64,000 nucleotides of DNA from Candidatus Daviesbacteria bacterium RIFCSPLOWO2_01_FULL_39_23 (GTDB taxonomy: Bacteria > Patescibacteriota > Microgenomatia > Daviesbacterales > UBA10151), in NCBI GenBank assembly GCA_001776935.1, contig MFDN01000014.1, positions 1,464 through 65,463 of the forward strand. Direction: 5' to 3'. Positions 15,168-34,251 of this stretch are shown here, in pieces. A program made the position numbers and the translations under genes. Below the pieces are notes generated by a model that saw only the letters and a list, made by a program, of their open reading frames with translations, searched no databases and had not been told where the DNA came from. Numbering within the stretch: the stretch's first letter is position 1; every line of letters begins with the position of its first letter.

Positions 15168-15781
15168 GCAAACCTGCGGATAACCCCCACACATTTTCCC
15201 TGAATTTTTACATCAGTTGCATAAATCGGCTGCATGGTGGAGTTGGCAGGTTCCAACCTTATCCTGTTGGGTTCTTTGAAGAATCTTTTTAAGGTGGCAA
15301 GTCCGTTTTCCAAAAGTGCCACTACAATATCTCCGTCAATTGCGGTATTTTGTTCCTCAATAATGACATAATCGCCGTCTAAGATACCCTCTTCTATCAT
15401 AGAATCACCCTTAACTTGTAAAACATAAGAGCGTTTTTTACCCGAGACCATAGAAGACGCCACTTTTATTGAGGCATCAGGGTCTGTATAGGTCATTATT
15501 GGCTGGCCTGCTGCAATAAATCCCAACACCGGCAATTCTATTCCTGCTAGAGCAGCAGAAATCTTTTGGTCAACAACCTCAATCCCTCTGACAGCGCCTT
15601 CGAATTTTTTAATGACGCCTTTTGTAACCAATGCCTGCAAATGTTCGTGTACTGTTGCCAAAGAAGAAACCCCGATGCTTTCGGCAATTTCTCCAAGGGT
15701 TGGGGAATAGCTGTACTTTTCAATGTATTGCTTTATAAAATCAAGGATTTGTTTTTGTCTTCTATATAATGTTATTGGCAT
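15164..15781 (-). CDS. lexA: LexA repressor (SOS regulator, S24 peptidase)
   Basis: An N-terminal winged HTH (LTKRQKQILDFIKQY...SPTLGEIAESIG) is followed by a C-terminal VKGDSMIEEGILDGDYVIIE...K catalytic Ser/Lys dyad region. Confidence 0.9.
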   Translation of the reverse strand: MPITLYRRQKQILDFIKQYIEKYSYSPTLGEIAESIGVSSLATVHEHLQALVTKGVIKKFEGAVRGIEVVDQKISAALAGIELPVLGFIAAGQPIMTYTDPDASIKVASSMVSGKKRSYVLQVKGDSMIEEGILDGDYVIIEEQNTAIDGDIVVALLENGLATLKRFFKEPNRIRLEPANSTMQPIYATDVKIQGKCVGVIRRFA

Positions 15782-18900: not shown

Positions 18901-21803
18901 CAGGTAATGCTTTCTCTGAAACTCTTGGCTTTGGAGCTGAAGGCTTTTGGTGGGCGACTGATGCTGATATGGCTACCTCAGGCCCTAATGGCGCAATTTT
19001 AGTCCAGGCAGTTGAAGCAGCTTTTGCAGGCGAATCAGCAGTTGACGGCGAACAGTCTGCCTTTGCCCGGGTCAGGATCAGAATAGATGTCGGAGAGCCG
19101 GGCACATACACTGTCACCTATCCGTTTGGAACAAAAACATATGATGTATTAACTGTAGGGCCAGGGTTTGAAATTAATGATACTTCTGATATCGGCTGCT
19201 TTGCCCAACCAGGTATAAGCTGTGACCAGGCAGGCCAGCCAAACTTCTCGACCGTATTAAGCGGTGAAATAGGACCATTCCTGACCTGGGACACCTTTGA
19301 CCCAAACCCGGTTCTTTCTGATCCTTTGCTGACACATTCTGTTACTAACAGGAGATATGTAGGCGACGGTATAACACCGCACATTGTTAAAGGCAGCCCG
19401 ACCGGCAACAACTTCTTCAGGATTGAAGGACCAAATATCGGAGGGGCTGGAGTTAACTCAGTCCAGACAAATTTGTTTACAGTAGTCGGCAGACTGGATA
19501 ATGCTGTTAATCCTAATGCGCCTGTTATCACCGTAGTCGGCGCAAACCCTGTCACTGTTTTGCTGAATGATCCTTACACTGCAGTACAAGATGCCGGCGC
19601 CACAGCCACAGATGTGCCTGATGGTGATTTGACTGCTTCTATTATAGAAAGCGGACTTCCGGTTGACACTTCCACTGTTGGAGCTAAAACTGTCACATAT
19701 ACAGTCACAGATGCTAACGGCAATACTGTAAGCGCCACAAGAACAATTAATGTGGTGGCTGCTCTTCCTGCTGATGTGACGCCTCCGGTTATTACTGTGC
19801 TGGGTGCAAATCCGATCACAGTTACAGTCGGATCAACCTATGCTGCGGCAGAAGATGCCGGTGCCACAGCTTTTGATGCTGTAGATGGTGTGGTAGTTGT
19901 AGCAGAATCGGGGTTGCCTGTTGATACCTCAACAGAAGGCGCCAAAACAGTCACATACACTTCCACAGACGCTGCCGGCAATACGGCTACTATCACAAGG
20001 ACTGTTAATGTGACATCTGCGCCTGTTACCACCGGTTCCATAAGGATCATAAAAGATACCGTATTAAATAACGCCCAGGATTTTGAATTCAGGTTAAGGC
20101 TTGGTGCGTTTGACCAAACTTTTTTCCTTGATGATGATTCTGATAATACGCTTCCTAATGTGCGCGAATTTGAAGGCCTGGCTACAGGAGCCTACAACCT
20201 TCAGGAGATCGTAAACAGTAATTGGAACCTAATTTCCATAAGCTGCAATGATCCTGATTCCGGTACAACCTTTGACTTAGGTGCATCCACCGCCACAATT
20301 GACCTTGATGCCGGTGAAAGAGTCACCTGTGAATTTACCAATGCCCCGCGCCAGTCAATTGCCGGTGAAAAGTTTTCTGACCAGAATAATAACGGGGTTA
20401 AAGAGGCAGGAGAACCTGGACTTTCCGGCTGGACAATTTATCTTGATACTAATGATAACGGTGTATTGGACGGCGGAGAGACTTCCGTAGTCACTGATTC
20501 AGAAGGAGATTACCAGTTCCTGAGTGTTAGCAATGGGGTGGTAAATGTGCGTGAGGTTACTCAAAGCAACTGGCAGCCAAAAACTCCATCCGGCGGGAAA
20601 TATGTCTTAACAATGACTTCAAACTCCAGTTTCATCAGTAAGGACTTTGGTAATGCCCAAATACTCACAATACCGGGTGCAAGCGGCAGATTTTTCTCAA
20701 CCGGCGGCCCTGTAAACTCCACCACCTCAGTTGTAGCTGATGATGATAATACAATTTCTGTGGCAGGCAATGGTGGCACTACTACTATTCTTATTCCTGA
20801 AGGTACTGTTATCACCAAATCAGACGGCGGCACTATTGATTTCAGCCAGCTCACATCTGCAGTATTAGCTGCTTCAGCTGTCTCAGGCTTGGGTAGCGGA
20901 GTGGTAGTTGATGGAGTCCTGCAATGGGGTATTCCAAACTTAGGTTTATTATTCAGCCAGCCAATTACCATTAATTTCTTTATCGGCACAGCTTTCAACG
21001 GCCAAACCTTAAATATTCAAAGGTCAATCTCAGGCAGCGGAGGCTGGACTACTGACGGCATTGTTGCTCCTGCTACCTGTACAGTATCAGCCGGAGTCTG
21101 CAGCTTCCAAACCACTAAAGCATCGTTCTTTGCATCTACACATAATGTTCCTGCTGACAATAATACAGGCAGCGGAACTTCTGGCAACAATAACAGCACT
21201 ACCTCAGCCCCTACCTGTAATGATGTCAAACCAGGTTCTGCACCAACTCTTTTGTCAGCTGTTGCAACCGGAGCCAATGAAGTGACCTTAACATGGAGCA
21301 AAGCTGCTGACCCGGTCACCGGATACATGATAGCTTTTGGACTTACCTCAGGAGATCTAAGATTTGGCGATCCAAACCAGGGCAGCAAAAATGATACTCA
21401 AAGAGTTATCAAAAACCTGTCCGGAGGCACCACATACTTCTTCAGAGTCAAAGCTGCAAACGGCTGCAATGCAAGCGACTATTCAAACGAGATAGCTGTA
21501 AAAGCAACCGGGCAGGCATTATCCACTAATATTCCTGCAGGGTTTCAGGAAGGGGTCTTAGGAGCACAAACTGATCAGGGCAGCACCGGTACCGGAGGGG
21601 CAATTGATTATCCGTCTCCTACCCCAAGCGTGGATGATGTATTAGGTACAGATTCGCAGAATGTGGGAGTAGGACAAGATCAAGCTCAAGGTCAAACAGC
21701 CGGAGCAAGATCCAATACCCCCCTGGCTGTGGGAGTAGCCTTAGTTTTGCTCACAATTCTGGGTGTTGGATATACATTATACAGGCGCAATAAACTTCAA
21801 TAA
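15903..21803 (+). CDS. Giant cell-surface protein with signal peptide, Pro-rich linker, Lamin-tail domain, tandem Ig-like (DUF5011/HYR-type) repeats, SdrD-B/CnaB-like and FN3 domains, and a C-terminal TM anchor
   Basis: 1966 aa. The likely true start is the ATG at 16047 (MFKFFAKKSITLISIFSLFINIISPLALA signal peptide). An LTD motif (VLINEILPNPTAGAEWVEFFNNG) is present. There are at least 7 repeats of the type ANPVxVxxNAPYTAxEDAGATAxDxVDGxLTA...GAKTVTYTVTDxAGNTA. An internal duplication of about 470 aa (LAEVGPVAPAGGL...GTYxVTYP) is visible. The C-terminus is PLAVGVALVLLTILGVGYTLYRRNKLQ. Confidence 0.8.
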   Translation: MADFLNGNKIFNTFKEQVSIYLNSYSKLTSLWLLPYKLKVIYTLLEKNMFKFFAKKSITLISIFSLFINIISPLALAGQIYAQEASPAPVVEEAPAPSANPGESPVPTTNENTPAEASPAPEVSPTPEPSPVVSPEPSPSQVSEPVLEETANESSPAAVVDPTPQEQTSATPVWQNIADKEFTTSENVTLGNEYTAPQNDKVKVQFTKLPDPSGKLTIKEVKLTPEEMTSLGAFSDTAYDITSTMSDSTFEYDLTLPLPQEAQNKEVEVKAAETEEQISQATEVTEQKEKKTQDTITIKGLNHFTVFVITTPSPDTTQRVLINEILPNPTAGAEWVEFFNNGTTSVNLGAGTGWTITNSVGSIQSLSALGTIPAAGRVVFDAPAGWLSNTAPETITISNELGTVVDTVTVSLIAPGFAIDHYPLAGESVGRRTDGVNEWLIFTTPSKGTANVVPVVGGAGRLAEVGPVAPAGGLRAGSPNWYRDNNNLTLELMEAADANGISAPVEAGNPFSAQIGFGAEGFWWSAEADLTTSAGSALLVQAIEAAFAGESAVDGEQSSFARIRIRVDVGEPGTYIVTYPYGQKTYTVTTPGVRAINDTVDIGCFAQPGVSCDQVGQPNFSTLLNGGIGPFLTWDTFNSTGPSDPALNIGGRRYVGTVATPHTVKGSPTGNNFFRIQGPNIGGPGINVIQTNLFTVTGRLAGAGAPVITLHGANPVNVLQNAPYTATEDAGATALDDVDGNLTANIQITGLPVNTATIGAKTVTYTVTDSAGNTATATRTVNVVETSAVDGVAPVITIAGNNPATVVAGTAYIDAGATALDNVDGAVAVSTTGLPVNTSVVGSATVTYTATDAAGNTASLDRIVNIVADNVAPTITITGSNPVFVFIGGTYTDAGATCTDNVDGDCTALIITSGAVIDTSAAGSHTVNYAYTDAAGNNTSVNRTVNVAATLPAGLVEVGPVAPAGGLGAGFPEWYKDSNALILDLMEAADPHSISAPVEAGNAFSETLGFGAEGFWWATDADMATSGPNGAILVQAVEAAFAGESAVDGEQSAFARVRIRIDVGEPGTYTVTYPFGTKTYDVLTVGPGFEINDTSDIGCFAQPGISCDQAGQPNFSTVLSGEIGPFLTWDTFDPNPVLSDPLLTHSVTNRRYVGDGITPHIVKGSPTGNNFFRIEGPNIGGAGVNSVQTNLFTVVGRLDNAVNPNAPVITVVGANPVTVLLNDPYTAVQDAGATATDVPDGDLTASIIESGLPVDTSTVGAKTVTYTVTDANGNTVSATRTINVVAALPADVTPPVITVLGANPITVTVGSTYAAAEDAGATAFDAVDGVVVVAESGLPVDTSTEGAKTVTYTSTDAAGNTATITRTVNVTSAPVTTGSIRIIKDTVLNNAQDFEFRLRLGAFDQTFFLDDDSDNTLPNVREFEGLATGAYNLQEIVNSNWNLISISCNDPDSGTTFDLGASTATIDLDAGERVTCEFTNAPRQSIAGEKFSDQNNNGVKEAGEPGLSGWTIYLDTNDNGVLDGGETSVVTDSEGDYQFLSVSNGVVNVREVTQSNWQPKTPSGGKYVLTMTSNSSFISKDFGNAQILTIPGASGRFFSTGGPVNSTTSVVADDDNTISVAGNGGTTTILIPEGTVITKSDGGTIDFSQLTSAVLAASAVSGLGSGVVVDGVLQWGIPNLGLLFSQPITINFFIGTAFNGQTLNIQRSISGSGGWTTDGIVAPATCTVSAGVCSFQTTKASFFASTHNVPADNNTGSGTSGNNNSTTSAPTCNDVKPGSAPTLLSAVATGANEVTLTWSKAADPVTGYMIAFGLTSGDLRFGDPNQGSKNDTQRVIKNLSGGTTYFFRVKAANGCNASDYSNEIAVKATGQALSTNIPAGFQEGVLGAQTDQGSTGTGGAIDYPSPTPSVDDVLGTDSQNVGVGQDQAQGQTAGARSNTPLAVGVALVLLTILGVGYTLYRRNKLQ

Positions 21804-21897: not shown

Positions 21898-23859
21898 ATG
21901 AATTTTAAGCTTATTTCAGATTTTAAGCCGACCGGAGATCAGCCGCAAGCCATACAAAAGTTGGTGACAGGGATTGAAAACGGCAAAAAATACCAAGTGC
22001 TTTTAGGTGTCACAGGTTCAGGCAAAACATTCACTATGGCAAATGCCATAGCGCGTGTGCAACGGCCCACCCTGATTATTTCCCACAATAAAACTCTGGC
22101 AGGGCAGTTGGCACAGGAATTCCGCTCTCTTTTTCCAAGCAACGCAGTGGAATATTTTGTTTCCTATTATGATTATTATCAGCCTGAGGCATACGTTCCC
22201 CAATCAGACACTTATATAGAAAAAGAAACGGAAATTAATGAGGAAATTGAGAAACTAAGGCTTTCCACCACAGCTTCTTTGATGACCCGCGAAGACGTTT
22301 TGGTAGTAGCTTCAGTTTCAGCTATCTATAACCTGGGTTCACCTGTTGAATACGGTCAGGCAGTTTTAGAACTTAAAGCAGGCATGAAAACAACTTTTGA
22401 CGCGGTCTTAAAATTTTTAACTAAAATTTATTATCAAAGAAATGACATTGATTTTAAGCGCTCCACTTTTAGGGTGCGGGGAGACACAGTAGACATTTTC
22501 CCTTCCCATTGGGAAAAGGCTTTAAGGGTGGAATTTTTAGGCGAAAGTGTTGAAAAGGTTTCCTTTTTAGATCCTTTAACCGGTGATGTAACTCCGACTA
22601 ACGAAACGCAGATTGTTTATCCGGCAAAGCATTATGTAACCCCCGAACAAAGGTTAAAGCCTGCTTTAGTTCAGATAGAGGGAGATTTAGAATCAAGAAT
22701 TAAGCAGTTAGAATCAAGCGGTAAATTACTGGAAGCGCAAAGACTTGCACAAAGGACAAATTATGATTTGGAGATGATCCGGGAATTCGGTTACTGCAAC
22801 GGAATAGAAAATTATTCCCGCTATTTTGACGGACGCAATCCCGGAGACCCGCCTTTTACCCTGCTTGATTACTTTCCTAAAGATTATCTTATTATTTTGG
22901 ATGAATCCCATATCACGCTTCCGCAAATACGCGGAATGTATAACGGCGACCGCTCCAGAAAAGAAACTTTGGTGGATTTTGGGTTCAGACTGCCTTCTGC
23001 TTTGGATAACCGGCCTTTAAAATATGATGAATTCATGCGCAAAATAAACCAGGTTATTTTCACCTCAGCCACCCCGGATGAGTATGAGTTGTCTTTATCC
23101 GGAGCAGACAGTGTTGCAGAACAGCTTATACGGCCTACCGGAATTCTGGATCCGCAAATTAGTGTCCGCCCGATTAAAGGACAAATTGAGGATTTAATAA
23201 AAGAAATTGAAAAAAGAACACAAAAAGGCGAAAGGACACTCGTAACTACTTTAACCAAAAGAATGGCTGAGGACTTATCAGATTTTTTGAAAGAGAGGGG
23301 AATTAAGGTAAATTATTTGCATTCTGAAGTTTTAACTTTAGAAAGAAGCGATATTTTGCAGGCTTTAAGACTTGGAGAATATGACGTGATTGTCGGGATC
23401 AATCTGCTCAGGGAGGGGCTGGATCTGCCGGAAGTGTCTTTGGTTGCTATTTTGGATGCAGATAAAGAAGGCTTTTTGCGTTCCCGGACTTCTTTGATAC
23501 AAACCATGGGAAGGGCTGCAAGGCATATAAACGGCACTGTGATTATGTATGCAGACAATATGACCGGTTCAATGAAATCAGCCATCGGCGAAGTGCAAAG
23601 GAGAAGAAAAGTTCAGGCAGAATACAATAAAAAACACGGCATCACCCCAAGAAGCATTACTAAACCCATGCGGGAAAGACTGATTGAAAAGATAGAGGAA
23701 GAAACCGGAGAGCAGGTTTTAACAGTTGAAGATATACCTGTAAACGAGAGGGAAAGAATTATTAAAAATTTGGAAGAACAAATGAAACTGGCAGCAGAAG
23801 GCTTAGACTTTGAACTGGCAGCCAAATTAAGAGATCAGATAAAAGAGTTAAATATTTAA
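21898..23859 (+). CDS. uvrB: Excinuclease ABC subunit B
   Basis: Walker [14 protein letters not shown], the helicase motifs and the C-terminal UVR domain ([13 protein letters not shown]) are present. Length is 653 aa. Confidence 0.95.
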
Positions 23860-24064
23860 GGAGTTCTATCAAATTCGTGATTTATTCTTAAATCTCTTAG
23901 ATACTTTAATAAATCCTGAGGGGTTCTGTAAGAGGCTATCACTGCCAGATATGCTTCAGGATATCTATCAATAGGGTTACGCAGAGGTATCTTTAGTGAA
24001 CCTTCCGGGTCAATGCGTCCACGTCCTTCTGTTATTTTCTCAACCATAACTTGATAATAACATA

Positions 24065-24130
24065 TTAATGCAAGTATACCTCTTTAAAAAGATTGCAAAA
24101 TAGGTTAAAATGGAACCTCATTTTTCGGGA
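24065..24130 (+). repeat. About 65-bp conserved promoter-like element, copy 1 (AGTATAyCCyCTTTAAAAG-TTGCAAAATAGGkTAAAATGGAACCTCATTTTTCGGGA)
   Basis: Near-identical to 29208..29270 (about 55/62 identities). It contains TTTAAA-17-TAAAAT and the palindrome AAAATG-N6-CATTTT. Confidence 0.6.
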
Positions 24131-24301
24131 TAAATTCGCTTTCCTGTCATTCTGGGGCGAAGCCGGAGAATATAATTTCCACAATTTCCACCTGGGAGGT
24201 GGCCCAGGTGTTGGAGTGTTAGACTGTTGTCGACTGTTATAGGATATTCTGCAACTAAAATCCACCTCCCGGGTGTTAAAGTGTTAAATGAACTGCTTTA
24301 G

Positions 24302-24544
24302 TTAAATAGATATTATGATTCCCCCAATTACTCTTTTGCCGGCTGATCTGCCTCCGCCGCCGAATTCAATATAGTGGTCACCTAAAGCAGATTCCAAAAT
24401 ATCCGTTTCTACAGTTTCCGGACTTGCCTGTAACTTTTTTACTTTTAACCTTTCAATAAACATTTCCCGGGAAATTCCGCCGGTGGAAAGCGCAGCTGAA
24501 GTAACTAATACTGAAATTTTTGCATCAGGAAATCTTCTTTTCAA
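24302..24544 (-). CDS. Hypothetical small protein
   Basis: 80 aa with a Gly-rich C-terminal part (EFGGGGRSAGKRVIGGIIISI). It is the last gene of a 3-gene minus-strand module. Confidence 0.4.
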   Translation of the reverse strand: MKRRFPDAKISVLVTSAALSTGGISREMFIERLKVKKLQASPETVETDILESALGDHYIEFGGGGRSAGKRVIGGIIISI

Positions 24545-24574
24545 AGCTTTTTGTTTTTTTAGGATAGTTTCAAC

Positions 24575-26140
24575 TTAGTTTTCCAAAATAGTGGGAGTAT
24601 TGGTACCGTAAACCCTGTCAAGCACAAATGCTGCTTCTGAAGAGCCATCAGATCTTTTAATCGGCTCAAAAAAAGCAATCTGGTCAGCAATGCTGCCTGT
24701 TGCTTTGTTTTCAGACTGGCTGTAAATATAGAATTTATTAATATCTCCAAAAGTCAAATCAGTATCGTTATTGGCACCTGAAGAAGCTATACAGGAAAGG
24801 CATTCGCGGATATTTTCCATCATCACATTAAAACTTTGGGTAGCCGTACTGGTGATTGTTTGCTGAGTGCTTTGAGCATAAATTATACTGCCTATTTCTT
24901 TTAATCTATTTTGGAGCTCAGGATTTCCAATATCGCTGCTTTGCCTTAAGCTGTTAAATTTATTCTTAACAGTTTCATAAATTTCTTCCAGCTTTACTAT
25001 TTGTTCCCTGATTTTACCGGTATATTGTAAAAGTGTTTCTTTTTCCTCAGCTGTTAATTCATCCTCATTTTTGACGATCAGGTTATCCAGGTAGTTTAGA
25101 TCCTGGCTGAGCGCAATAGCCCCGGAGGTTGGTTGAAAATCTTCCCCTAATCTTTGGAAAATTTTAATTACTGCCTCCGAAGGCTTTAGGAATTCTCTCA
25201 GCAGGGAAATTTTAGGTTCTGCTTCTGATTGTTTTATGAGGCCGACAAAATTAACTACTGCTGCCAAAGGCTTTATTTCATCCTGGAAATATTTTTTTAG
25301 GGACTCCGGATTCAGGGCTAAGTTATTTTGTTGTGCTGTATCAATTACAATTTGCCGTATTTTTTCCTCTTCTTCGCTAAATGCAATGGTTCTTCCGGGG
25401 TTGGCCAGCTGCTGGTACATTTTAGCCATTGTTGCTCCCACTGCTTTATTGCCAAAGTCCAAAAGTAGCTTCATGCGTTGTTTGTCTAAAGGTTCGGGGT
25501 AAAGGTCTAAATCTTCCAGGGTTTTTAAGTTTAAAATTATATTGGTAAGTTTAATGTCAATTGTCTCAATGTTACCGACTACTATGCTTGAACTTTCTTC
25601 CTGCAGCAGGCTAAAAAATTCCGGCAGATCTTCTGCTGGTAGCCCAAGGCTTTGCGCAAGCTGAGTATTCATTTCCGTTCTCTTTTTTAAGAGTTCTTTA
25701 ACTATCTGAGCTTTTTCCAGAGCTAAAAACTCATCCGGGTTAATATTTTTTCCTCTTCTGAAATTTTCCCATGAATCATTGAGCATCAAAGATAAATAGA
25801 ATCCCAGGATAGTTTCATTTTGCGCTGAACGATGGCTTAGATTGGCAAGATATTTAGAAATATTGGTAAATGACCTGATATGGTCCAGTGTAAATTGATC
25901 AGGAATCTTAATGATGCCAAAGCGGTCCTTAAACAACATGGCAATTCCTTCCAGCAGTCTTTTTTTATGGGCTTCAAACGGATTTTCGGTTGAGCCTAAA
26001 GCAGTGCCAAAACTTCTGATTTCGTGCCTTAACTGCAGCAGCTGTTTAGGATCAAAGTACTTAGTGCCGGATTTAACCTGTTCCAAAAGAGCCAGTTTTG
26101 CCCGGTATAAAGGGTAGATATCTTTGGCAAATTGTTTCAT
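24575..26140 (-). CDS. Large hypothetical cytoplasmic protein (alpha-helical, no recognised domain)
   Basis: 521 aa with no TM segment and no Walker or catalytic motifs seen. It starts 11 nt after the stop of the 1015-aa gene upstream. Confidence 0.55.
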   Translation of the reverse strand: MKQFAKDIYPLYRAKLALLEQVKSGTKYFDPKQLLQLRHEIRSFGTALGSTENPFEAHKKRLLEGIAMLFKDRFGIIKIPDQFTLDHIRSFTNISKYLANLSHRSAQNETILGFYLSLMLNDSWENFRRGKNINPDEFLALEKAQIVKELLKKRTEMNTQLAQSLGLPAEDLPEFFSLLQEESSSIVVGNIETIDIKLTNIILNLKTLEDLDLYPEPLDKQRMKLLLDFGNKAVGATMAKMYQQLANPGRTIAFSEEEEKIRQIVIDTAQQNNLALNPESLKKYFQDEIKPLAAVVNFVGLIKQSEAEPKISLLREFLKPSEAVIKIFQRLGEDFQPTSGAIALSQDLNYLDNLIVKNEDELTAEEKETLLQYTGKIREQIVKLEEIYETVKNKFNSLRQSSDIGNPELQNRLKEIGSIIYAQSTQQTITSTATQSFNVMMENIRECLSCIASSGANNDTDLTFGDINKFYIYSQSENKATGSIADQIAFFEPIKRSDGSSEAAFVLDRVYGTNTPTILEN

Positions 26141-26151
26141 TTGAGCTGGTT

Positions 26152-29100
26152 TTAACTTTGTAAAACTGCCAGATAATCTGAAAAAAGACTGGGCGCAGCA
26201 ATCAAAATATCACGGGAAATATTGTAAAAATCCGTTCTATCTTCATTAGACCATTTTTCTTTTGCAAATTTCTCTTCCATAATATAAATTCCATGGAATA
26301 CTTCAGATTTAGTTCTTTGCGCCGTGGTATCGCGGGCAAAACTATCATGCAGGCTAAGAATAAAATTGCTGAGAGATTCAAGCTGGCTAAGGGGTCCTGC
26401 ATCGCCATAAAGTGAAATTATTCCCGGTACTGCTAATAAGGAGAAAGGCATAATTTCTACACCTCCGCTTTTAAGATACTTTTCCCAGATGCTTCGGAAT
26501 TGATTAAGACAAAAATCCCTAGTTTTTGGTTCTCCAAACAGGGCAATGAGTTTTTCTTTTTGTGCAGTATTACTAAGGAGATGGTGATAGGGGTTATTCA
26601 TAATTTCAATGTAAGCCATTAACAAAGGCATCCAATTTTGCCCATTTATTGTGACTGTTTCCTGATCAAGCATTTGTTTGAGAGATTCTTGTTGTTTGAA
26701 TAAAGTAGCCTGGCAAAAATTCTTAAGCATTCTCTTGTCAATTTTTCCCAAACGCCCCAAGCTTTTTCCAAGTTCCGCGTCTTGCGTTAGATTAAGATTG
26801 AAAAACCCTTTTTCTTCGGCTTCTGTAAAGATTTCTAATCCTTCATCTGTCTCAAGGAATATTTCCGGGTAGCTTTCTGCCAAAGAAAAATTAGGATTTT
26901 TAAAGACCGGTCCGGCTTTGGAAGATAGCTCCAAGGCTCTTGCTTTAGTAAGTTTACCTCTGTCCACGAGATTTAGCATTTTAAAAATGATTGTTTTGTC
27001 AAAATCACGGTAACTTACAACCATGTCCTGAAAAAAATGTGAGGTTTGTTCGCCTTGAAATTGATATAATAATTGATGAAGGAGTGACAAGTCAGTGGTT
27101 AAGGCCGGGCAAATTTGCCAGGCTGTCAAAAGAGGCTCGAGCAAATTCGCATCAAAGCTTGATTCTCCTATTCTTGAAATCAACTTACCGTCTGTTAAAT
27201 AGATAATTACTCCCTTATTATGCTGATTTTGGATGATTTTTTGCGCTAATTTGTAAAATCTGTTTTGGATAATGTTTTTAGCCTCAGCTGCTTCTTTTTC
27301 CAGTCTACATTGTTCAAGCGACGGCCCCCATTCATCTATCATGTGCCCTGCATCAGACCATCCGACCGTATGCGCCGGTCTTTCCAGCTGGCCGGAAACA
27401 GACTTGAAGCACAGGAGTAATTTTTCTCTTAAGCTATTCAAAAAATACGCTCCGCTAATTTTTGCTGCCTGCTCAAAGACTTTTGATTCAGCCTCTGTGA
27501 TAACACCATTTTCTTCTAGTAAACCAAGGAGAGGAGTGATGGTTAGGCTGTCTGTTGCCATCTCCTTTAATGCCGGGTCTACCCCGGGTTCGTTTATGAT
27601 TGAAAGTGCAAGATTTGTTGCAGCTTCCCTGAATTTGGAGCGGATACCCCACTGCTGCAGGCCTTCCGGAATTTTTCTGGTTAATACCTCCCTGGCTGAT
27701 TTTAAGCTTGGATACACAGTTTCAGCTTGATCTAAAATAGAAGACCAGTCAGGCTTTTTGTTAAGTAAATTTAAAGCTCCAATTGCAGCATCAACTCCGT
27801 GGCTGGTATTTGCGGCTGCTGCTATCAATACTAAATTTCTGATAGTAGAAGGATGCGGGTATTCAGCAATAAAGTACACAACATGGCCTTGGTCGTCTTT
27901 AAGAGAATCCTTAAGTGCAAGTGAATAAAACAAGTTATCCTGCTCGCTGACAGCATCGCCCAGGACTTGAGCAGCAGCTTCTGATGTTTTGGCTGCCTGC
28001 CAGAAAGCCATTTTTGAACTAGAAGGGTACCTTATTTCACTATAAATTTCTTCCCAAAATTTTATATGACCTATAAAACCAGAGTTGCTACCATAGGTGC
28101 GATTATGCCGCAGATTGCTAATCTTGATATATTTTAATAAACCTTGGTGGAAATTACCAGAGCCCTCTGTTAGGTGGGTCTCTATTGCACTGCTTAGTAA
28201 ATAAATGTCACGCACAGCCATGTTATTGAGTAACTCGGCTACCAATGTTTTATTCATATCTTCCAAAAGCGGCTGGCAGCTTATTTTGAAGTCAGCAATT
28301 GTAAAACTTCCAGCATCATCAATATCTGCTTCAAGCAATTTTTTTAATCTGTCAACAGGAGTTTGACCAGCCTTATTTTGTTTTGTTGGACTAGTTATAT
28401 AATCCCGAAGAACTGTGTAGTATTTTCTTTGATCAGCCCAAATAAATGGATGCTCTTTGGGAATTTTTCTAAGCTTTGGTAAGATTACTTTTAAGATGTA
28501 AGTTTTAGCAAAGTCTGCTGGCAGGGTGCCGTCTGTAATAATTTCATCCGCCATTTCTTTGTACCCTTCTGAGATAGCTGAAAATTCCTGCTTAATTTCC
28601 TCTAAGATTGTTGCTTCCCGTTTTTGAGTCAGTTCATTTTGATTACCCTCGATTCCATTTATTGCTTTTTGTTTTTGTTCAAGCTGGCTTGCTGCTTCCG
28701 CAGCCTGGGCATCAAGTGAATCTTTTTGTGCTGAAAGTTCTTTTCTTTTTCTGCGGGTAAAAAATCTTCTGAGTCCGCGGATTTGGTCAACCTCCTGATG
28801 TTGTGCTGCAACTTCTTGGGCATTTTCTGTTAAGCGTTGGTATTCCCGCTCAATTGCAGATTTTTCCTGAGCTGTTTGAGCTTTTAACTGAAGAATACAT
28901 TGCAAAGCAATACTGCTTCTTGCCAGGTATTCGGCTGCAGAGCCCGGGGGTATTTTTTGCAAATCTTCCAATAAGTCTTGCAGATTTTGAGGAGAGGTTT
29001 TAATTTCGCTATCAGGCTCCGGAGGCGTTACAGTCAGGTTATTTATTAAGGCAGGAGCATTTTCAACATACTGGCTGGTTCGGGCCCTTAAGGAGTTTAG

Positions 29101-29199
29101 TTTGGTAGCTAAAATAGCTGTTGGAGAGGCAGGAGTGGTTTGTAATTCAGGGCTTTTGGTTGGATCTTTAGGCGGTTCAGGCTCAACAGTTGTAGGCAT
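26152..29199 (-). CDS. Very large hypothetical cytoplasmic protein with coiled-coil regions (no recognised domain)
   Basis: 1015 aa. The N-terminal region is Pro/Thr-rich, and Q/E/K-rich coiled segments span aa 120-200. No TM segment and no NTPase motifs. Confidence 0.55.
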   Translation of the reverse strand: MPTTVEPEPPKDPTKSPELQTTPASPTAILATKLNSLRARTSQYVENAPALINNLTVTPPEPDSEIKTSPQNLQDLLEDLQKIPPGSAAEYLARSSIALQCILQLKAQTAQEKSAIEREYQRLTENAQEVAAQHQEVDQIRGLRRFFTRRKRKELSAQKDSLDAQAAEAASQLEQKQKAINGIEGNQNELTQKREATILEEIKQEFSAISEGYKEMADEIITDGTLPADFAKTYILKVILPKLRKIPKEHPFIWADQRKYYTVLRDYITSPTKQNKAGQTPVDRLKKLLEADIDDAGSFTIADFKISCQPLLEDMNKTLVAELLNNMAVRDIYLLSSAIETHLTEGSGNFHQGLLKYIKISNLRHNRTYGSNSGFIGHIKFWEEIYSEIRYPSSSKMAFWQAAKTSEAAAQVLGDAVSEQDNLFYSLALKDSLKDDQGHVVYFIAEYPHPSTIRNLVLIAAAANTSHGVDAAIGALNLLNKKPDWSSILDQAETVYPSLKSAREVLTRKIPEGLQQWGIRSKFREAATNLALSIINEPGVDPALKEMATDSLTITPLLGLLEENGVITEAESKVFEQAAKISGAYFLNSLREKLLLCFKSVSGQLERPAHTVGWSDAGHMIDEWGPSLEQCRLEKEAAEAKNIIQNRFYKLAQKIIQNQHNKGVIIYLTDGKLISRIGESSFDANLLEPLLTAWQICPALTTDLSLLHQLLYQFQGEQTSHFFQDMVVSYRDFDKTIIFKMLNLVDRGKLTKARALELSSKAGPVFKNPNFSLAESYPEIFLETDEGLEIFTEAEEKGFFNLNLTQDAELGKSLGRLGKIDKRMLKNFCQATLFKQQESLKQMLDQETVTINGQNWMPLLMAYIEIMNNPYHHLLSNTAQKEKLIALFGEPKTRDFCLNQFRSIWEKYLKSGGVEIMPFSLLAVPGIISLYGDAGPLSQLESLSNFILSLHDSFARDTTAQRTKSEVFHGIYIMEEKFAKEKWSNEDRTDFYNISRDILIAAPSLFSDYLAVLQS

Positions 29200-29207
29200 G
29201 ATTAGTA

Positions 29208-29270
29208 TCAGTATATACCCCTTTAAAAGTTTTGCAAAATAGGGTAAAATGGAACCTCATTTTTCGGGAA
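29208..29270 (+). repeat. About 65-bp conserved promoter-like element, copy 2, upstream of uvrA
   Basis: See copy 1. The uvrA ATG lies about 50 nt downstream. Confidence 0.6.
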
Positions 29271-29318
29271 TCCTTCGACTCCCCTTCGGCTTCGCTCAGG
29301 GTCGCTCAGGATAAAAGT

Positions 29319-32261
29319 ATGGCTATAGACAAGATAATAATCAAAGGTGCCCGTGAGCACAATCTAAAAAATATAGATTTGGAAATTCCTAAAAACAAAC
29401 TGGTGGTTTTAACCGGCATTTCCGGCTCCGGCAAATCTTCTTTGGCTTTTGATACTTTATATGCAGAAGGCCAAAGGAGATACGTGGAATCCCTTTCTTC
29501 TTACGCCCGGCAGTTTTTAGGGGTAATGGATAAGCCTGATGTGGATCTTATCGAAGGGCTTTCCCCGGCCATTTCCATTGATCAAAAAGGTGTTTCGCAC
29601 AATCCGCGTTCCACTGTTGGTACCACCACTGAAATTTATGATTATTTAAGACTCTTGTTTGCCCGCATCGGCCATCCGCATTGCCCTGTTTGCGGAGCAG
29701 AAGTCTCCAAAATGAGCGTGGAGCAGATAGCAGAAAAAGTGACAAGTGATAAGCAACAAGTTACAAGTAAAGGAAGGAGGATAATGGTTTTGGCGCCTGT
29801 TGTAAAAGACCGGAAAGGGGAATACAGTCAGCTTTTTGAAGACTTAAAGAAAAAAGGATTTTCAAAAGCCCGGATTGACGGTCATATAAGGGATTTATCC
29901 GAGGATTTAGTTTTAATTAAAACTAACAAACATACGATTGACTTGGTTGTAGACCGGCTGGTCTTAGAGTCAGAAGTCAAGAGTCAAAAGTCAAGTGAGG
30001 CAAATTCTAGACTCTCGACTCTAGCTACTAGACTCTTGCAGAGTATTGAGACAGCGCTAAAATTTGGCGAGGGATCTGTAATTATTTCTGAAGTTTTGGA
30101 TGCGTCTTTGGAGTTTCCGCAAAACCCGAAAAAAATGAAAGATCACCTGTACTCTGAAAGATTTGCCTGCCCGGTAGACAATATATCTTTGCCGGAAATT
30201 GAACCAAGGCTGCTTTCTTTTAATTCTCCCCATGGTGCCTGTCCTAAATGTTCAGGTTTAGGCACACTTCTTGAGATAGACGAAACCACTATTTTAAACC
30301 CGATTCTTTCCATTGAAGAAGGCGGGATACTTCCCTGGTCAAAGCTGGCAACATCTGATACCTGGTTTACCAAGCTTGTAACTGCAGTGGGTAAAGAATA
30401 CGGGTTCGACCTTAGTACAAGGCTTGGGAGTTTGACGCCTGAGGCTAAGCAAATCCTGCTTTTTGGTTCAGGCGACAAGGAATTTAAAGTGGAAGGAAGA
30501 AACAGACAGGGTAAATGGACGCACTTTTATTCTGAATTTTCCGGACTTGTCGCCTACCTTAAGCAAAGGTATGAAACTTCTGAATCAGACTTTGTCAAAG
30601 CGGAGATAGAAAAATATATGTATAAGGAAACTTGCCCCAAATGTAAGGGCGCAAGGCTGAAAGATGAGGCTTTATCAATCACAATAGACAGTTTAAATAT
30701 TGCAGAAGTAACCGGACAGTCAATAGTGCAGACCCTTGAATGGATAAAATCAATTCAAATCAATGGTCGGGAAGCGCAAATTGCCACCCCTGTTGTGAAA
30801 GAGATTAAGGCCAGACTGCAATTTCTGATAGATGTCGGTCTGGATTATCTGACTTTGGACCGGGCTGCGCAAACTTTGGCAGGAGGAGAAAGCCAGCGGA
30901 TCAGGCTTGCCTCACAAATTGGCTCAGGTTTATCAGGTGTTTTATATGTTTTGGATGAGCCATCAATAGGTTTACACCAGCGCGATAACGCGCGTCTTAT
31001 ACAAACACTTAAAAAATTACGGGATTTAGGCAATACGGTGGTGGTTAATGAACACGACGCTGAGACAATGGAAGCTGCGGACCTTTTGATAGAAATCGGT
31101 CCGGGAGCAGGCGAGCACGGCGGCAACATAGTGGCTATAGGTACGCCTGATCAGATCAAAAAAAACGCAGCATCTTTAACAGGCCAATATCTTTCCGGTA
31201 AAAAAAGAGTGACTGTTCTCAGTCACCCCAAAGATGCCCCAGAGCGACAGGCGAAGGATCTTATTAATGGTAAATTTCTTAAGATTAAGGGAGCCAGTGA
31301 GCATAACTTAAAAAATATCAATGCAGAATTTCCTTTGGGTAAATTTATTGCTGTCACAGGCGTTTCAGGATCGGGAAAGTCAACGCTAATTCATGACATT
31401 TTGTACCGGGCTCTGGCGCAAAAAATATACCGCTCCCGCGAAAAGGCAGGGGCTTATAAAGAAATGGAAGGCGTAGAAAATATCGACAAAGTGGTGCTTG
31501 TGGATCAATCTCCTATTGGCCGGACTCCCCGATCTAATCCTGCCACCTATACCGGCGCTTTTACATTCATAAGGGATCTTTTTGCCAATTCTCCCGAAGC
31601 AAAAATAAGGGGATATGGACCGGGCAGATTTTCTTTCAATGTTAAAGGAGGACGGTGCGAGGTTTGTGAAGGGGAAGGAACTTTAAAGATTGAAATGCAG
31701 TTTTTGCCTGATGTATATGTGACTTGTGAGGCCTGCAATGGTAAAAGATACAACAGGGAAGCGCTTGAAATTCATTTTAAAGAAAAAACAATTGCAGATG
31801 TTTTGGATATGACAGTTGAGGAGGCTTTAAAGTTTTTTGAAAATATTCCTTATATAAAAAATAAACTGCAGGTTCTAAATGATGTAGGTCTTGGTTATAT
31901 CAGGCTGGGCCAGCCTGCGCCCACTTTATCCGGCGGAGAAGCTCAAAGGATCAAACTTTCATCTGAATTATCCAAACGGCCCACAGGACATACCATGTAT
32001 ATTTTGGATGAGCCCACCACGGGTTTACACTTTGCAGATATAGAAAGACTGCTGGCAATCCTTAGAAAACTTGTAAATTTTGGTAACACCGTGATAATCA
32101 TTGAACATAATCTGGATGTTATCAGGAATACTGACTGGATTTTGGACTTGGGACCGGAAGGCGGCGATAAAGGCGGAAAAATAGTTGCTGAAGGCACGCC
32201 TGAAAATATCGCCAAGCTTAAAGCTTCCCACACCGGTCAGTATCTGGCAAAGATAACATGA
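29319..32261 (+). CDS. uvrA: Excinuclease ABC subunit A
   Basis: Two ABC ATPase modules ([14 protein letters not shown] and [13 protein letters not shown]), a zinc-finger (CPVCG) and signature LSGGE motifs are present. The ORF track begins at 29232, but the conserved N-terminus [19 protein letters not shown] starts at 29319. Confidence 0.95.
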
Positions 32262-32292: not shown

Positions 32293-34251
32293 ATGTTTAG
32301 AAAAACGCTGGTAGTTTTACCCCATTTTTTGAGATACGTGATACGTGATACGAAATATGTTATTTTTATACTGTTTTTACTTATCACTTGTCACTTATCA
32401 CTTATCCCTCCTGTGTTTGCTGCAGAGGAATTTGCAACCTCCTATGATGTGTTATACGACATAGGTGAGGACGGCATTGCTACTATTACTGAAAAAGTTA
32501 ATCTGCGTAATTTAACCTCTGAATATTATGCCAATCAATTTAAGCTGACTATCGGCGCCACTCAGATTTCCGATATTAAGGCTTCGGATGCAGGCGGCAG
32601 CTTGGAAATTGCAAGCGAGCAAAAAGAAAATCTGACTACAATCAGCGTTAAATTCAATCAGCAGGTGGCAGGTCTTGGGAAAAATTTACCCTGGACTATT
32701 TCATTTAAATCTAAAGATTTCGCTGAAAAAGTCGGCAAGATTTGGGAGGTTAGGGCGCCCCGGATTTCGCCCACTTCCAACCCGGAAAGTTATAACTTAA
32801 CATTGTCTGTTCCCAAAATCTTTGGTGATCCTTCGCAAATTTCCCCAACCCCGAAAAGCCAGACAGTTTCAGGAAATAAACTATTTTTAACATTTGATAT
32901 GGAGCAACTGAAGTCTTCCGGAGTATCCGCCACTTTCGGCCAGAACCAGCTTTTTGACTTTGATCTTACTTATCATTTGGAAAATAATAATCTGGTGCCT
33001 GTCCGCACTAATATTGCCCTGCCTCCTGACACTTCTTTTCAGGATGTTATTTATCAAAGGATAGAACCTAAACCGCTGAATGTCACTCTGGATAATGACG
33101 GTAACTATTTAGCCTGGTTCCGTTTGGAAAGAGGTCAAAAAATGGATGTTAAAGTTTTTGGATCTGCAAAGCTTTATTCAAGTTCCAAAGTTAAAAATCC
33201 CTTTTTAGAAGAAAGCTTAAGAAATAAATATACTTCTGCGGATAAATATTGGGAAAAAGATAATCCGCAAATTATCAGTAAAGTAAATGAGATTTTGGGT
33301 AAAAATCCTCCTCCGGATAACGGGGAAAAGGCGAAACTTATTTTCCGTTTTGTAGTAAACTTTTTGAAATATGATTCCTCGCGGCTTGAGGGCAACATAG
33401 AAAGATTCGGAGCAGTTACTGCGTTAAATAATCCGGATACTGCCGTATGCATGGAGTTTACAGACCTTTTTATAGCGCTTGCAAGAGCCGCCGGCATTCC
33501 TGCGCGTGAATTAAACGGATACGCCTACAGCGCCAATAATGCTTTGCGCCCGCTTTCTTTAACAAAAGATATCCTCCATTCCTGGCCGGAATATTGGAAC
33601 GCAAGCCGCGGATGGGTGATGGTGGATCCAACCTGGGAAAATACCACGGGTGGAGCGGATTATTTCAGCAAGTTGGACCTTAATCATTTTGCCTTTGTGG
33701 TAAAAGGTTCGTCTTCATCCGAACCGATTCCTGCCGGGTCTTATAAATATACGGGTCAGGAAGATACGCGGGATGTTAAAGTTTCTCTGTCTGATACGGA
33801 CTTTTTGGGGCATCCTCAGATTGATGTTGTTTTAGAGTCCCTCAATCCGGTTATTTCCGGTTTTCCCGGCAAGCTGGTTATTAAGGTTACAAATACCGGC
33901 AATTCTTTTTTTCCTTCCGATTCCCTGACAATAAACTCGAACAAACTGACAATCCAAAACTCCAAAACCCAAAAGTTGGGTATAATTCCCCCTTTTGGAA
34001 GTTCGGTATTTGAATTTAATGTCAGGACAAAATCCTTATTTGATTCTTTTACAGATCAAATGACAATTGCCATAGGCAATCAAAAATTTACACAGGAAGT
34101 GAAGGTAGCTCCTTTTATTTTATTTCAAACAGTTCCGCTGATTATTTCTGCAGTTGCCGCTTTTATGGTTTTGGTGTATGCGGTGATTTTAGGTGTCTTC
34201 ATTTACCGGAAGCGGATTCTTAAAGCAAAGCTTCAAGCCGGTAAATCATGA
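32293..34251 (+). CDS. Transglutaminase-like domain membrane protein
   Basis: A signal/TM segment is followed by a core VCMEFTDLFIALARAAGIPARELNGYAY...SWPEYW...GWVMVDP (Cys-His-Asp transglutaminase-like triad context) and a C-terminal TM helix. Its stop overlaps uvrC by 4 bp. Confidence 0.7.
   Translation: MFRKTLVVLPHFLRYVIRDTKYVIFILFLLITCHLSLIPPVFAAEEFATSYDVLYDIGEDGIATITEKVNLRNLTSEYYANQFKLTIGATQISDIKASDAGGSLEIASEQKENLTTISVKFNQQVAGLGKNLPWTISFKSKDFAEKVGKIWEVRAPRISPTSNPESYNLTLSVPKIFGDPSQISPTPKSQTVSGNKLFLTFDMEQLKSSGVSATFGQNQLFDFDLTYHLENNNLVPVRTNIALPPDTSFQDVIYQRIEPKPLNVTLDNDGNYLAWFRLERGQKMDVKVFGSAKLYSSSKVKNPFLEESLRNKYTSADKYWEKDNPQIISKVNEILGKNPPPDNGEKAKLIFRFVVNFLKYDSSRLEGNIERFGAVTALNNPDTAVCMEFTDLFIALARAAGIPARELNGYAYSANNALRPLSLTKDILHSWPEYWNASRGWVMVDPTWENTTGGADYFSKLDLNHFAFVVKGSSSSEPIPAGSYKYTGQEDTRDVKVSLSDTDFLGHPQIDVVLESLNPVISGFPGKLVIKVTNTGNSFFPSDSLTINSNKLTIQNSKTQKLGIIPPFGSSVFEFNVRTKSLFDSFTDQMTIAIGNQKFTQEVKVAPFILFQTVPLIISAVAAFMVLVYAVILGVFIYRKRILKAKLQAGKS

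What the first reader, a model, noticed from the sequence alone, without database searches (positions are those of the whole stretch)
24065..29270. A 5.1-kb three-gene module of unknown function, bracketed by direct copies of a 65-bp promoter-like element, between uvrB and uvrA
Two near-identical copies of AGTATAyCCyCTTTAAAAG(A/T)TTGCAAAATAGG(T/G)TAAAATGGAACCTCATTTTTCGGGA sit at 24065-24130 and 29208-29270 in the same orientation. Between them lie three co-directional genes of 1015 aa, 521 aa and 80 aa, closely spaced with 11- and 30-nt gaps. None has a TM segment, a nucleotide-binding motif or a domain I can recognise. The large genes are helical, coiled-coil and rich in Q, E, K and L. Direct-repeat bracketing of a gene block inside a DNA-repair neighbourhood looks like an insertion, with the repeat acting as a duplicated att or promoter region. 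It could equally be a lineage-specific system, possibly effector-like. This is the best candidate in the window for an undescribed module.
Basis: partly seen in the sequence, partly recalled or inferred. Interest (0 to 1): 0.7.

Follow-up and report, generated by a model that had tools for sequence, protein, structure and literature searches.

The report
One broken giant gene, not three
The "three-gene module" is one roughly 1,630-codon gene, from an uncharacterised family of giant helical proteins found across the tiny-celled Patescibacteria, that a frameshift and a stop codon have recently cut into three pieces; the flanking repeat is a local copy of the promoter region shared with uvrA, not a mobile-element scar.

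Summary
The 56-65 nt direct repeat is real and far beyond chance. It occurs only twice in about 80 kb of this genome. The three ORFs exist on the minus strand, but they are fragments of one gene.

More than 50 homologues, and 291 clusters in an exhaustive search, are single proteins with a median length of about 1,620 aa, and they run uninterrupted across both "gene junctions".

- **1015/521 junction:** a one-base deletion in a T5 run. An otherwise identical contig has T5 and is in frame; four other assemblies have T4.
- **521/80 junction:** an in-frame TAA where homologues have Gln or His. It is present in all five assemblies checked for this site.

Every conserved family residue is still intact, so the damage is recent or the pieces still work.

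There is no integrase, no tRNA, no compositional anomaly, no presence/absence variant and no conserved synteny.

Verdict: a young pseudogene or split copy of an undescribed giant protein family. Moderately interesting at the family level, ordinary at the locus level.

The parts
24302..29199 (-). One ancestral gene of about 1,632 codons (giant Patescibacteria protein), now in three ORF fragments
   Evidence: Adding one T and reading TAA as a sense codon gives one 1,632-aa frame. tblastn shows single-frame coverage of residues 1-1632 in L003, 193-1629 in L007 and 209-1632 in L009. Intact ORFs of 1,477-2,560 aa occur in 8 genomes. 56 homologues are mostly 1,400-1,620 aa.
26152..29199 (-). Fragment A (the 1015-aa ORF): residues 1-1012 of the protein, then 3 out-of-frame codons and a stop
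   Evidence: The AlphaFold model is all-helical with a long coiled coil at about residues 88-270, pLDDT 86.5. No PDB fold match.
26162..26165 (-). Frameshift site: a T4 run on the coding strand where the in-frame allele has T5
   Evidence: L002 (ENA ERZ27254749) has 0 mismatches over 3,230 nt and differs only by T5 here. With T5 the reading is ...SDYLAVFTKLKPAQMKQF..., as in homologues. T4 is found in L018-L021.
24575..26140 (-). Fragment B (the 521-aa ORF): the conserved helical region plus the N-terminal half of the GNAT-like domain
24575..24577 (-). In-frame TAA nonsense codon (codon 1542) at a position where homologues have Gln or His
   Evidence: Present in all five assemblies. TAA is the commonest true stop codon in the window, 30 of 47, so this is not recoding.
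24302..24574 (-). Fragment C: 90 in-frame codons after the TAA (this includes the 80-aa ORF at 24302-24544), encoding the a3-b5-a4-b6-b7 half of the GNAT-like domain
   Evidence: The frame continues as N-TAA-VETILKKQKALKRRFPD..., matching the homologues' NQVDAVLKKYRTIKQRFP. All conserved residues, such as GDHYIEFGG, are kept.
24305..24862 (-). C-terminal GNAT-like alpha/beta domain (residues about 1447-1632)
29205..29270 (.). Repeat copy 2, within the divergent intergenic region between the giant gene (ATG at 29199, - strand) and uvrA (ATG at 29319, + strand)
   Evidence: Promoter-like hexamers: + strand TTTAAA (29222) N17 TAAAAT (to 29250); - strand TTGCAA (29237) N16 TATACT (to 29210).
24065..24130 (.). 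Repeat copy 1, between the 3' end of the giant gene and the 63-aa ORF
   Evidence: Carries the + strand TTTAAA-N17-TAAAAT (24083-24111). The - strand spacing is shortened by the 2-nt gap, so no - strand promoter is scored.
24189..24275 (.). Long-range GC-rich hairpin in the 171-nt spacer after the giant gene's stop codon
   Evidence: + strand z = -2.7. No Rfam match.
23856..24047 (-). 63-aa ORF just downstream (on the - strand) of copy 1. It overlaps the end of uvrB by 4 nt. Whether it is a real gene is unproven.
   Evidence: no relatives, no Pfam match. Its codon usage correlates poorly with host genes (r = 0.44), but the ORF is short.
29319..32261 (+). uvrA (980 aa), served by the + strand promoter-like site in copy 2
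21898..23859 (+). uvrB

Best explanation
The block is one chromosomal gene of about 1,632 codons on the minus strand. It belongs to a large, uncharacterised family found in Patescibacteria (CPR) genomes. Family members are giant soluble proteins: a disordered N-terminus, a long coiled coil, about 1,200 aa of further helical domains, and a C-terminal domain of about 185 aa with the GNAT acyltransferase fold.

Inferred function: the helical body is a scaffold or target-recognition module, and the terminal domain is the catalytic part, transferring an acyl group from an acyl-CoA or a similar donor. Candidate active-site residues are the invariant Asp at the end of strand b4, the Tyr-Gly loop that follows it, and a family-specific CxxC / NNDT / DHY-E cluster.

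In this organism the gene carries two lesions:
- A CAA-to-TAA nonsense mutation at the start of helix a3 of the GNAT-like domain, present in all five assemblies checked.
- A one-base deletion in a T5 run. This is polymorphic: T4 in four assemblies, T5 in one.

The most likely state is therefore a very young pseudogene. Less likely, it is a gene expressed as fragments.

The 56-65 nt direct repeat is a local duplication of the bidirectional promoter region shared by the giant gene and uvrA. Copy 2 is the working divergent promoter. Copy 1 is a slightly decayed duplicate in front of a doubtful 63-aa ORF, probably left by the rearrangement that placed the giant gene between uvrB and uvrA.
For: One gene:
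- Homologues cross both junctions in one frame.
- 56 word-indexed homologues and 291 clusters at 50% identity carry the conserved module at the C-terminus of proteins of 1,300-2,800 aa. The median length is 1,620 aa among the 154 retrieved sequences of at least 1,300 aa.

The lesions are real:
- T4 plus TAA in L018-L021, from NCBI, ENA and JGI assemblies. T5 plus TAA in L002.
- TAA is the normal stop codon here.

The lesions are recent:
- 27 of 27 invariant and 30 of 30 near-invariant residues are retained.

Fold:
- AlphaFold pLDDT 83.9 and 86.5.
- The best domain-sized Foldseek hits are GNATs: TacT1 (probability 0.85) and AAC(6').

Native, non-mobile gene:
-.

Repeat as promoter region:
-.
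- Similarity continues weakly across the whole intergenic region.
- Only two copies in about 80 kb.
Against: - The GNAT assignment rests on fold only. There is no Pfam or PDB profile match, even with a 27-sequence domain profile.
- Foldseek E-values are weak, 0.19 or higher.
- The Q/R-x-x-G-x-G/A CoA-binding loop is only half matched: [RKQ]-x-Y-G-x-x-T-P.
- The loop carrying CxxC/NNDT is modelled with pLDDT below 50.
- Full conservation of key residues, including those in the 80-aa piece, fits continued function as well as it fits recent death.
- A second lineage (Amesbacteria, L004/L022) has a frameshift only 8 codons from the same site. This hints that splits at this point may be tolerated.
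- The history of the duplication cannot be reconstructed. No relative closer than 60% amino-acid identity is available.
- No expression data were available.
Confidence: 0.6

Rival explanations
1. Functional split or switchable gene. The pieces are still made and work together, or the gene is turned on and off. The T4/T5 tract would act as a phase-variation switch. The C-terminal 90 aa would be supplied by stop-codon read-through or re-initiation and would complete the GNAT-like domain without a covalent link.
For: - Both T4 and T5 alleles exist on otherwise identical DNA.
- All conserved residues are intact in all three pieces.
- An independent lineage is broken 8 codons away, at a CTA AAA AAT site where a -1 shift restores the conserved LKKYR.
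- The Levybacteria homologue is also in two ORFs, 612 and 711 aa.
Against: - A tract of 4-5 T is far shorter than known contingency tracts.
- There is no canonical slippery heptamer at the T4 site (sequence).
- No Shine-Dalgarno-like sequence lies before the 521-aa or 80-aa starts.
- Most homologues (8 of the 11 or so genomes inspected, and nearly all of 150 representatives) are uninterrupted.
- The break falls inside a compact domain rather than between domains.
- The chance that two lineages are broken this close together is only roughly 0.1, so it is not compelling.
Confidence: 0.2
2. One reading: a mobile or horizontally inserted module whose direct repeats are duplicated attachment or target sites.
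For: - A 5.1-kb block in opposite orientation interrupts an otherwise co-directional uvrB-uvrA-(TGase)-uvrC cluster and is bracketed by 91%-identical direct repeats.
- The family has no fixed genomic neighbourhood.
- One homologue sits beside a prophage-like block.
Against: - No integrase, transposase or tRNA in or next to the block.
- Composition and codon usage match the host.
- The six places shown for the 11 contigs carrying this uvrA reveal no empty-site variant.
- The family is absent from phage, plasmid and IMG/VR collections.
- The repeat is promoter-like, and its similarity extends over the whole intergenic region rather than ending at a sharp att core.
Confidence: 0.07
3. Artefact: the frameshift, the stop codon, or both are sequencing or assembly errors, and the gene is intact in the cell.
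For: The frameshift is a homopolymer length difference, and one assembly has the in-frame length.
Against: - T4 recurs in four assemblies from different pipelines and samples: NCBI GCA_003516415.1, ENA ERZ978281, JGI 3300000815 and ENA ERZ4903070.
- TAA occurs in all five.
- The Amesbacteria lesions are likewise reproduced in two assemblies.
Confidence: 0.05
4. The repeat is a shared operator for a transcription factor (for example an SOS-type regulator) that co-regulates uvrA and the giant gene through copy 2 and the 63-aa ORF or an antisense RNA through copy 1. This does not exclude the best explanation.
For: - 38 nt are conserved with a single change, more than a bare promoter needs.
- A lexA homologue lies 6 kb away.
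- Copy 2 sits on the uvrA promoter.
Against: - No part of the element recurs upstream of lexA or uvrB.
- No clear palindrome of a known LexA-box type (sequence).
- The high identity may simply reflect a recent duplication.
Confidence: 0.12

Closest known systems
GNAT (GCN5-related N-acetyltransferase) superfamily, e.g. NatD/Naa40 (4u9w), AAC(6') enzymes, and the TacT/AtaT tRNA-acetylating toxins
   Different: No sequence-profile similarity and 4-16% identity in the structural alignments. Motif A is not canonical. There is a family-specific CxxC...NNDT insertion and a DHY-E-F-G-G motif. The domain is fused to about 1,440 aa of helical scaffold, whereas typical GNATs are 150-200 aa stand-alone proteins.
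Giant genes in small-celled or predatory uncultivated bacteria (bioRxiv 10.1101/2023.11.21.568195; title and abstract seen)
   Same: An unusually long ORF carried by bacteria with very small genomes, known only from metagenomes.
   Different: This family is 1.3-2.8 thousand aa. Nearly all members lack a strongly hydrophobic segment, and only one has one near the N-terminus. No cell-wall-degrading or adhesin domains were found. I read only that paper's title and abstract.
Homopolymer-tract contingency (phase-variable) genes of host-associated bacteria
   Same: A one-base length change in a homopolymer switches the reading frame, and both lengths are found on otherwise identical DNA.
   Different: The tract is only 4-5 nt. 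A second lesion (TAA) that cannot switch back is fixed. Most family members have no such interruption.
Young pseudogenes in reduced symbiont genomes
   Same: A nonsense mutation plus a homopolymer indel in a long, AT-rich gene that is otherwise perfectly conserved. Other family members are also disrupted: Levybacteria and Amesbacteria, so 3 of about 14 genomes inspected.
   Different: No sign of decay yet; loss of function has not been demonstrated.

Membership tests
   Relatives encode one ORF spanning all three.
Integrative or mobile element with att or target-site repeats | A recombinase, integrase or transposase inside or beside the element | tested here: not met
   No such domain in any ORF of 23856-29199 (Pfam, NCBIfam, PHROGs, PADLOC).
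Integrative or mobile element with att or target-site repeats | Integration at a tRNA or other recognised target; compositional difference from the host | tested here: not met
   The nearest tRNAs are about 15-17 kb away. GC content and codon usage match the host.
Integrative or mobile element with att or target-site repeats | Presence/absence polymorphism, or the same element at other sites or on phages and plasmids | tested here: not met
   The contigs carrying this uvrA show the block wherever they extend far enough. No phage, plasmid or IMG/VR copies of the family.
GNAT acyltransferase superfamily | The GNAT fold topology (mixed sheet b1-b7 with a1-a4) | tested here: met
GNAT acyltransferase superfamily | A sequence-profile match to GNAT families | tested here: not met
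   No Acetyltransf_* hit for whole proteins or for 27 isolated domains at E up to 10. No GNAT hit in a PDB profile search.
GNAT acyltransferase superfamily | The Q/R-x-x-G-x-G/A acyl-CoA pyrophosphate-binding loop between b4 and a3 | tested here: inconclusive
   The family has [R/K/Q]-x-Y-G-x-x-T-P at that position. The Gly is at least 90% conserved, but the last G/A is absent.
GNAT acyltransferase superfamily | Binds acyl-CoA and transfers the acyl group | not testable with these tools
   Needs biochemistry.
Pseudogene | Frame-disrupting lesions relative to intact homologues, reproducible in independent data | tested here: met
   T4 frameshift and TAA, found in 4 and 5 assemblies respectively.
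Pseudogene | Relaxed constraint, seen as loss of conserved residues | tested here: not met
   57 of 57 conserved positions are retained. This is expected only if the lesions are very recent.
Pseudogene | No full-length product | not testable with these tools
   No transcript or peptide data.
Programmed recoding (frameshift or read-through) | The recoding site is conserved among relatives; a slippery motif is present | tested here: not met
   Relatives are uninterrupted at both sites. There is no X_XXY_YYZ motif at the T4 site. TAA is the normal terminator.
Phase-variable contingency locus | A length-polymorphic simple repeat within the ORF | tested here: inconclusive
   T4/T5 polymorphism is observed, but the tract is very short and within-sample frequencies are unknown.
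Genome-wide repeated promoter or REP-like element | Many copies upstream of unrelated genes | tested here: not met
   Two copies in 64 kb plus 15.6 kb of the same genome. None in 15 related loci. The whole genome was not available.

The most novel reading that the evidence does not exclude
The family is a new class of giant enzymes specific to Patescibacteria, possibly delivered to or acting on the host cell. A helical scaffold of 1,400-2,400 aa would present a highly divergent GNAT-fold domain with its own Cys/His/Asp-type active site. Breaks at helix a3 of that domain, seen in two co-occurring lineages, would be tolerated or regulated (a split or switchable enzyme) rather than signs of gene death.
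Probability: 0.12. Interest if true: 0.65.

Novelty: new variant of a known kind. Interest (0 to 1): 0.37.

Why it matters
Patescibacteria have genomes of about 1 Mb, yet hundreds of lineages spend 4-8 kb on this single gene, and no database gives it a name. A fold-level lead (a GNAT-like terminal domain) and a list of invariant residues make the family testable.

For annotation, this locus is a reminder that closely spaced, co-directional ORFs with no recognisable domain in metagenome-assembled genomes can be fragments of one gene. Public records of this locus call three separate proteins.

For the locus itself the result is deflationary: there is no new multi-gene system and no mobile element.

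Tried and rejected
1. Word-indexed homology search with the 1015-aa ORF found nothing. This was a filter failure. The identical protein is on record, and homologues were found through the 521-aa ORF and through profiles.
2. The first profile for the search for related loci had no conserved stretch; a four-sequence alignment fixed this.
3. The first exhaustive search failed because the profile exceeded 1,200 positions; it was rerun with alignment A6.
4. Two metagenome scans for the repeat gave no hits. They are uninformative, because JGI records that hold exact copies were missed.
5. Stop-codon reassignment is rejected: TAA ends 30 of 47 ORFs, and uvrA and uvrB are intact under the standard code.
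6. A known structured RNA in the two intergenic regions is rejected: Rfam found nothing at gathering thresholds or at E up to 1.
7. A defence-system or phage protein is rejected: only coiled-coil noise turned up, such as SbcC, JetC and PbeC at E around 1e-3.
8. A conserved partner gene is rejected: all-against-all comparison of ORFs from 15 loci linked only the giant gene itself.
9. The 63-aa ORF as a remnant of a duplicated 5' end of the giant gene: no similarity found.
10. A shared SOS box with the lexA and uvrB upstream regions: none found.
11. The N-terminal 1015 aa against PDB folds: no match, E at least 0.37 and TM-score at most 0.13.
12. Literature searches found no description of this family.


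Full report
**Observation**

The direct repeat is real. The two copies, 24075-24130 and 29214-29269, are 56 nt long and 91% identical without gaps. With a 2-nt indel they extend to about 24065 and 29205. The 38-nt core occurs exactly twice in the window, and none of 100 shuffles gave two matches. Sensitive local searches found no other copy in the window. They also found none in a further 9.2 kb and 6.4 kb of the same genome, fetched from other assemblies.

Between the copies lie ORFs of 1015, 521 and 80 aa, all on the minus strand, with gaps of 11 and 30 nt. uvrB (21898-23859) lies on one side. On the other lie uvrA (true start 29319), a transglutaminase-core gene and uvrC. The sequence facts therefore hold.

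**The three ORFs are one gene**

The 521-aa ORF has clear homologues. Their sequences run on at both ends.

- Upstream, they continue through the C-terminal 100-250 aa of the 1015-aa ORF.
- Downstream, they continue "...TPTILENQVDAVLKKYRTIKQRFP...GDHYIEFGG...". This matches the window's "...TPTILEN-TAA-VETILKKQKALKRRFP...GDHYIEFGG...", read in frame through the stop codon at 24575-24577.

The upstream junction is a frameshift. Contig L002 (ENA ERZ27254749) is identical to the window over 3,230 nt except for one base. It has GCAG-TTTTT-ACAAAG where the window has four T (26162-26165). With five T the frame reads "...SDYLAVFTKLKPAQMKQFAKD...", as in the homologues.

Restoring that T and reading TAA as a sense codon gives one protein of 1,632 aa. 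tblastn with this protein against 13 loci from species-representative genomes shows single-frame coverage:

- residues 1-1632 in a Woesebacteria MAG (L003);
- residues 193-1629 in L007 and 209-1632 in L009.

Intact ORFs of 1,477-2,560 aa occur in eight of these genomes. A profile search returned 56 homologues, mostly 1,400-1,620 aa, all unnamed and without Pfam domains. An exhaustive HMMER search of 1.84 billion representatives found 291 clusters, 228 of them at E of 1e-30 or better. In every listed case the conserved module sits at the C-terminus of a long protein. The median length is 1,620 aa among the 154 retrieved sequences of at least 1,300 aa.

**The lesions are real**

The same locus is 100% or 99.99% identical in four further assemblies:

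- NCBI GCA_003516415.1, contig DPCX01000016.1;
- ENA ERZ978281 (SRR1658344);
- JGI 3300000815, AMFJ01014358;
- ENA ERZ4903070.

All four carry both T4 and TAA. Only L002 has T5, and it also has TAA.

TAA is the commonest genuine terminator in the window, ending 30 of 47 ORFs, so recoding is excluded. At the TAA position homologues have Gln or His. A single C-to-T change in a CAA codon is the simplest origin; this step is inferred.

All 27 invariant and 30 near-invariant family residues are intact across the three fragments. The lesions are therefore very recent, or the pieces remain under selection.

Other family members are disrupted too:

- **Levybacteria:** the gene is split into ORFs of 612 and 711 aa, with about 30-45 aa missing.
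- **Amesbacteria GW2011_GWC2_45_19:** the gene has an in-frame TGA and a -1 frameshift in CTA AAA AAT, only 8 codons after the window's TAA position. Both lesions are reproduced in an independent contig.

My rough estimate of the chance of two lineages being broken so close together is about 0.1. It is noted but not compelling.

**What the protein is**

No library recognises it: Pfam, NCBIfam, PADLOC, PHROGs and PDB sequences were all tried. The only matches are coiled-coil noise.

AlphaFold models built with family alignments are confident. The window's 1015-aa part scores pLDDT 86.5 and is entirely helical, with very long helices at about residues 88-270. It has no PDB fold match. The conserved C-terminal 768 aa, modelled on homologue P0002, scores pLDDT 83.9. 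It is helical up to about residue 580 and then forms an alpha/beta domain with the element order b1-a1-loop-b2-b3-b4-a3-b5-a4-b6-b7.

Sequence profiles do not connect the domain to GNAT families. The CoA-loop motif is only half canonical, [RKQ]-x-Y-G-x-x-T-P. I therefore call the domain GNAT-like by fold. An acyl-transfer activity is an inference, not a finding.

The family-specific invariant residues are E-N-x-R-x-C-L-x-C, N-N-D-T, a Lys at b2, Asp residues in b3 and at the end of b4, Y-G, and D-H-Y-x-E-F. These point to an enzyme with its own active-site chemistry.

Nearly all members (145 of 154) lack any strongly hydrophobic segment, and only one has such a segment near its N-terminus.

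Mapped to the window, the GNAT-like domain spans 24305-24862. The TAA falls at the start of helix a3, right after the Y-G loop. It separates the b1-b4 half of the domain from the a3-b7 half.

**Context and mobility**

Loci with the family come from Woese-, Ames-, Levy-, Magasanik-, Peri- and Gracilibacteria, Minisyncoccia and Saccharimonadales. A few MAGs are labelled only generically.

Neighbouring genes differ everywhere, and no partner gene is conserved. Only the Levybacteria genome also has uvrB nearby.

The evidence against a mobile element is as follows.

- The family is absent from phage, plasmid and IMG/VR collections.
- Within the window, the block's GC content (0.39-0.40 against 0.404) and codon usage (r = 0.86, the same as uvrB) are native.
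- There is no recombinase or tRNA nearby.
- The six places shown for the 11 contigs carrying this exact uvrA reveal no empty-site variant.

**The repeat**

Both copies carry a + strand TTTAAA-N17-TAAAAT. In copy 2 this sits 69 nt before the uvrA start codon. Copy 2 also carries a - strand TTGCAA-N16-TATACT that ends 10 nt before the giant gene's start codon. In copy 1 a 2-nt gap shortens that spacer, and no - strand promoter is scored.

Weak similarity continues across the whole giant-gene/uvrA intergenic region. The simplest reading is a duplicated bidirectional promoter region. Copy 1 now lies between the giant gene's 3' spacer and a 63-aa ORF that has no relatives and atypical codon usage.

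How the duplication arose cannot be settled, because no relative closer than 60% protein identity exists in the searched collections. It could be a by-product of the rearrangement that put the giant gene inside the uvr cluster, or a later local event.

The two metagenome scans that found no copies are not evidence, because they missed known positives. Rfam finds nothing in either intergenic region.

**Verdict**

But the "three-gene module" is a single, recently broken gene of a widespread and undescribed Patescibacteria family, and the mobile-insertion idea lacks support. The locus is ordinary: a young pseudogene or split gene next to a duplicated promoter. The family, giant helical proteins ending in a divergent GNAT-like domain, is a reasonable target for experimental work.

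My confidence levels:

| Claim | Confidence |
|---|---|
| It is one gene | about 0.97 |
| The lesions are real | about 0.9 |
| The C-terminal domain has a GNAT-like fold | about 0.7 |
| It has acyl-transfer activity | about 0.4 |
| It is non-functional here | about 0.6 |

Noticed in passing
window 15164-15781 (-), 21898-23859, 29319-32261, 32293-34251, 34248-35558: A lexA homologue lies 6 kb upstream of uvrB. uvrB, uvrA and uvrC are clustered on one strand, with a 652-aa transglutaminase-core gene wedged between uvrA and uvrC and overlapping the uvrC start by 4 nt.
   Followed up: partly
window 24189-24275: A 14-bp GC-rich long-range stem (CCACCUGGGAGGUGG / CCACCUCCCGGGUG) encloses about 58 nt in the spacer after the giant gene. 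The + strand fold has z = -2.7. There is no Rfam match and no U-tract, so it is not a canonical terminator.
   Followed up: partly
window 24110-24133 and 29249-29314 (+): A small ORF starts inside the repeat on the + strand. In copy 1 it reads MEPHFSG-stop. In copy 2 it runs 21 codons and ends 4 nt before the uvrA ATG. It overlaps the predicted -10 box, so the promoter reading and the leader-peptide reading exclude each other.
   Followed up: no
L004 about 11575-11600 and 7790-7792; L022 4995-5010 and about 1200: The Amesbacteria GW2011_GWC2_45_19 homologue has an in-frame TGA and a -1 frameshift at CTA AAA AAT, 8 codons from the window's TAA position. Both lesions recur in an independent contig from ERZ27254749.
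   Followed up: partly
L001 8124-12136: The Levybacteria homologue is split into ORFs of 612 and 711 aa, in different frames, with about 30-45 residues of the conserved region missing. It lies near uvrB and lexA.
   Followed up: partly
window 15903-21803 (+): A 1,966-aa protein with LTD, bacterial Ig-like, HYR, SdrD-B and fn3 domains, likely a surface adhesin, sits between lexA and uvrB. Its GC content (0.46) is higher than its surroundings.
   Followed up: no
window 40591-40744: GCA_003516415.1 (L018) matches the window exactly except for an indel of about 150 nt here.
   Followed up: no
L016 1630-7921: The intact homologue P0012 lies beside a prophage-like block: a large-terminase-like gene, ParB-N6 methyltransferases and a serine recombinase. 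Nothing similar appears at the other loci.
   Followed up: no
tools: Two tool negatives proved false. The word-indexed protein search missed an identical protein that is on record. The metagenome DNA scan missed JGI records that hold exact matches.
   Followed up: yes
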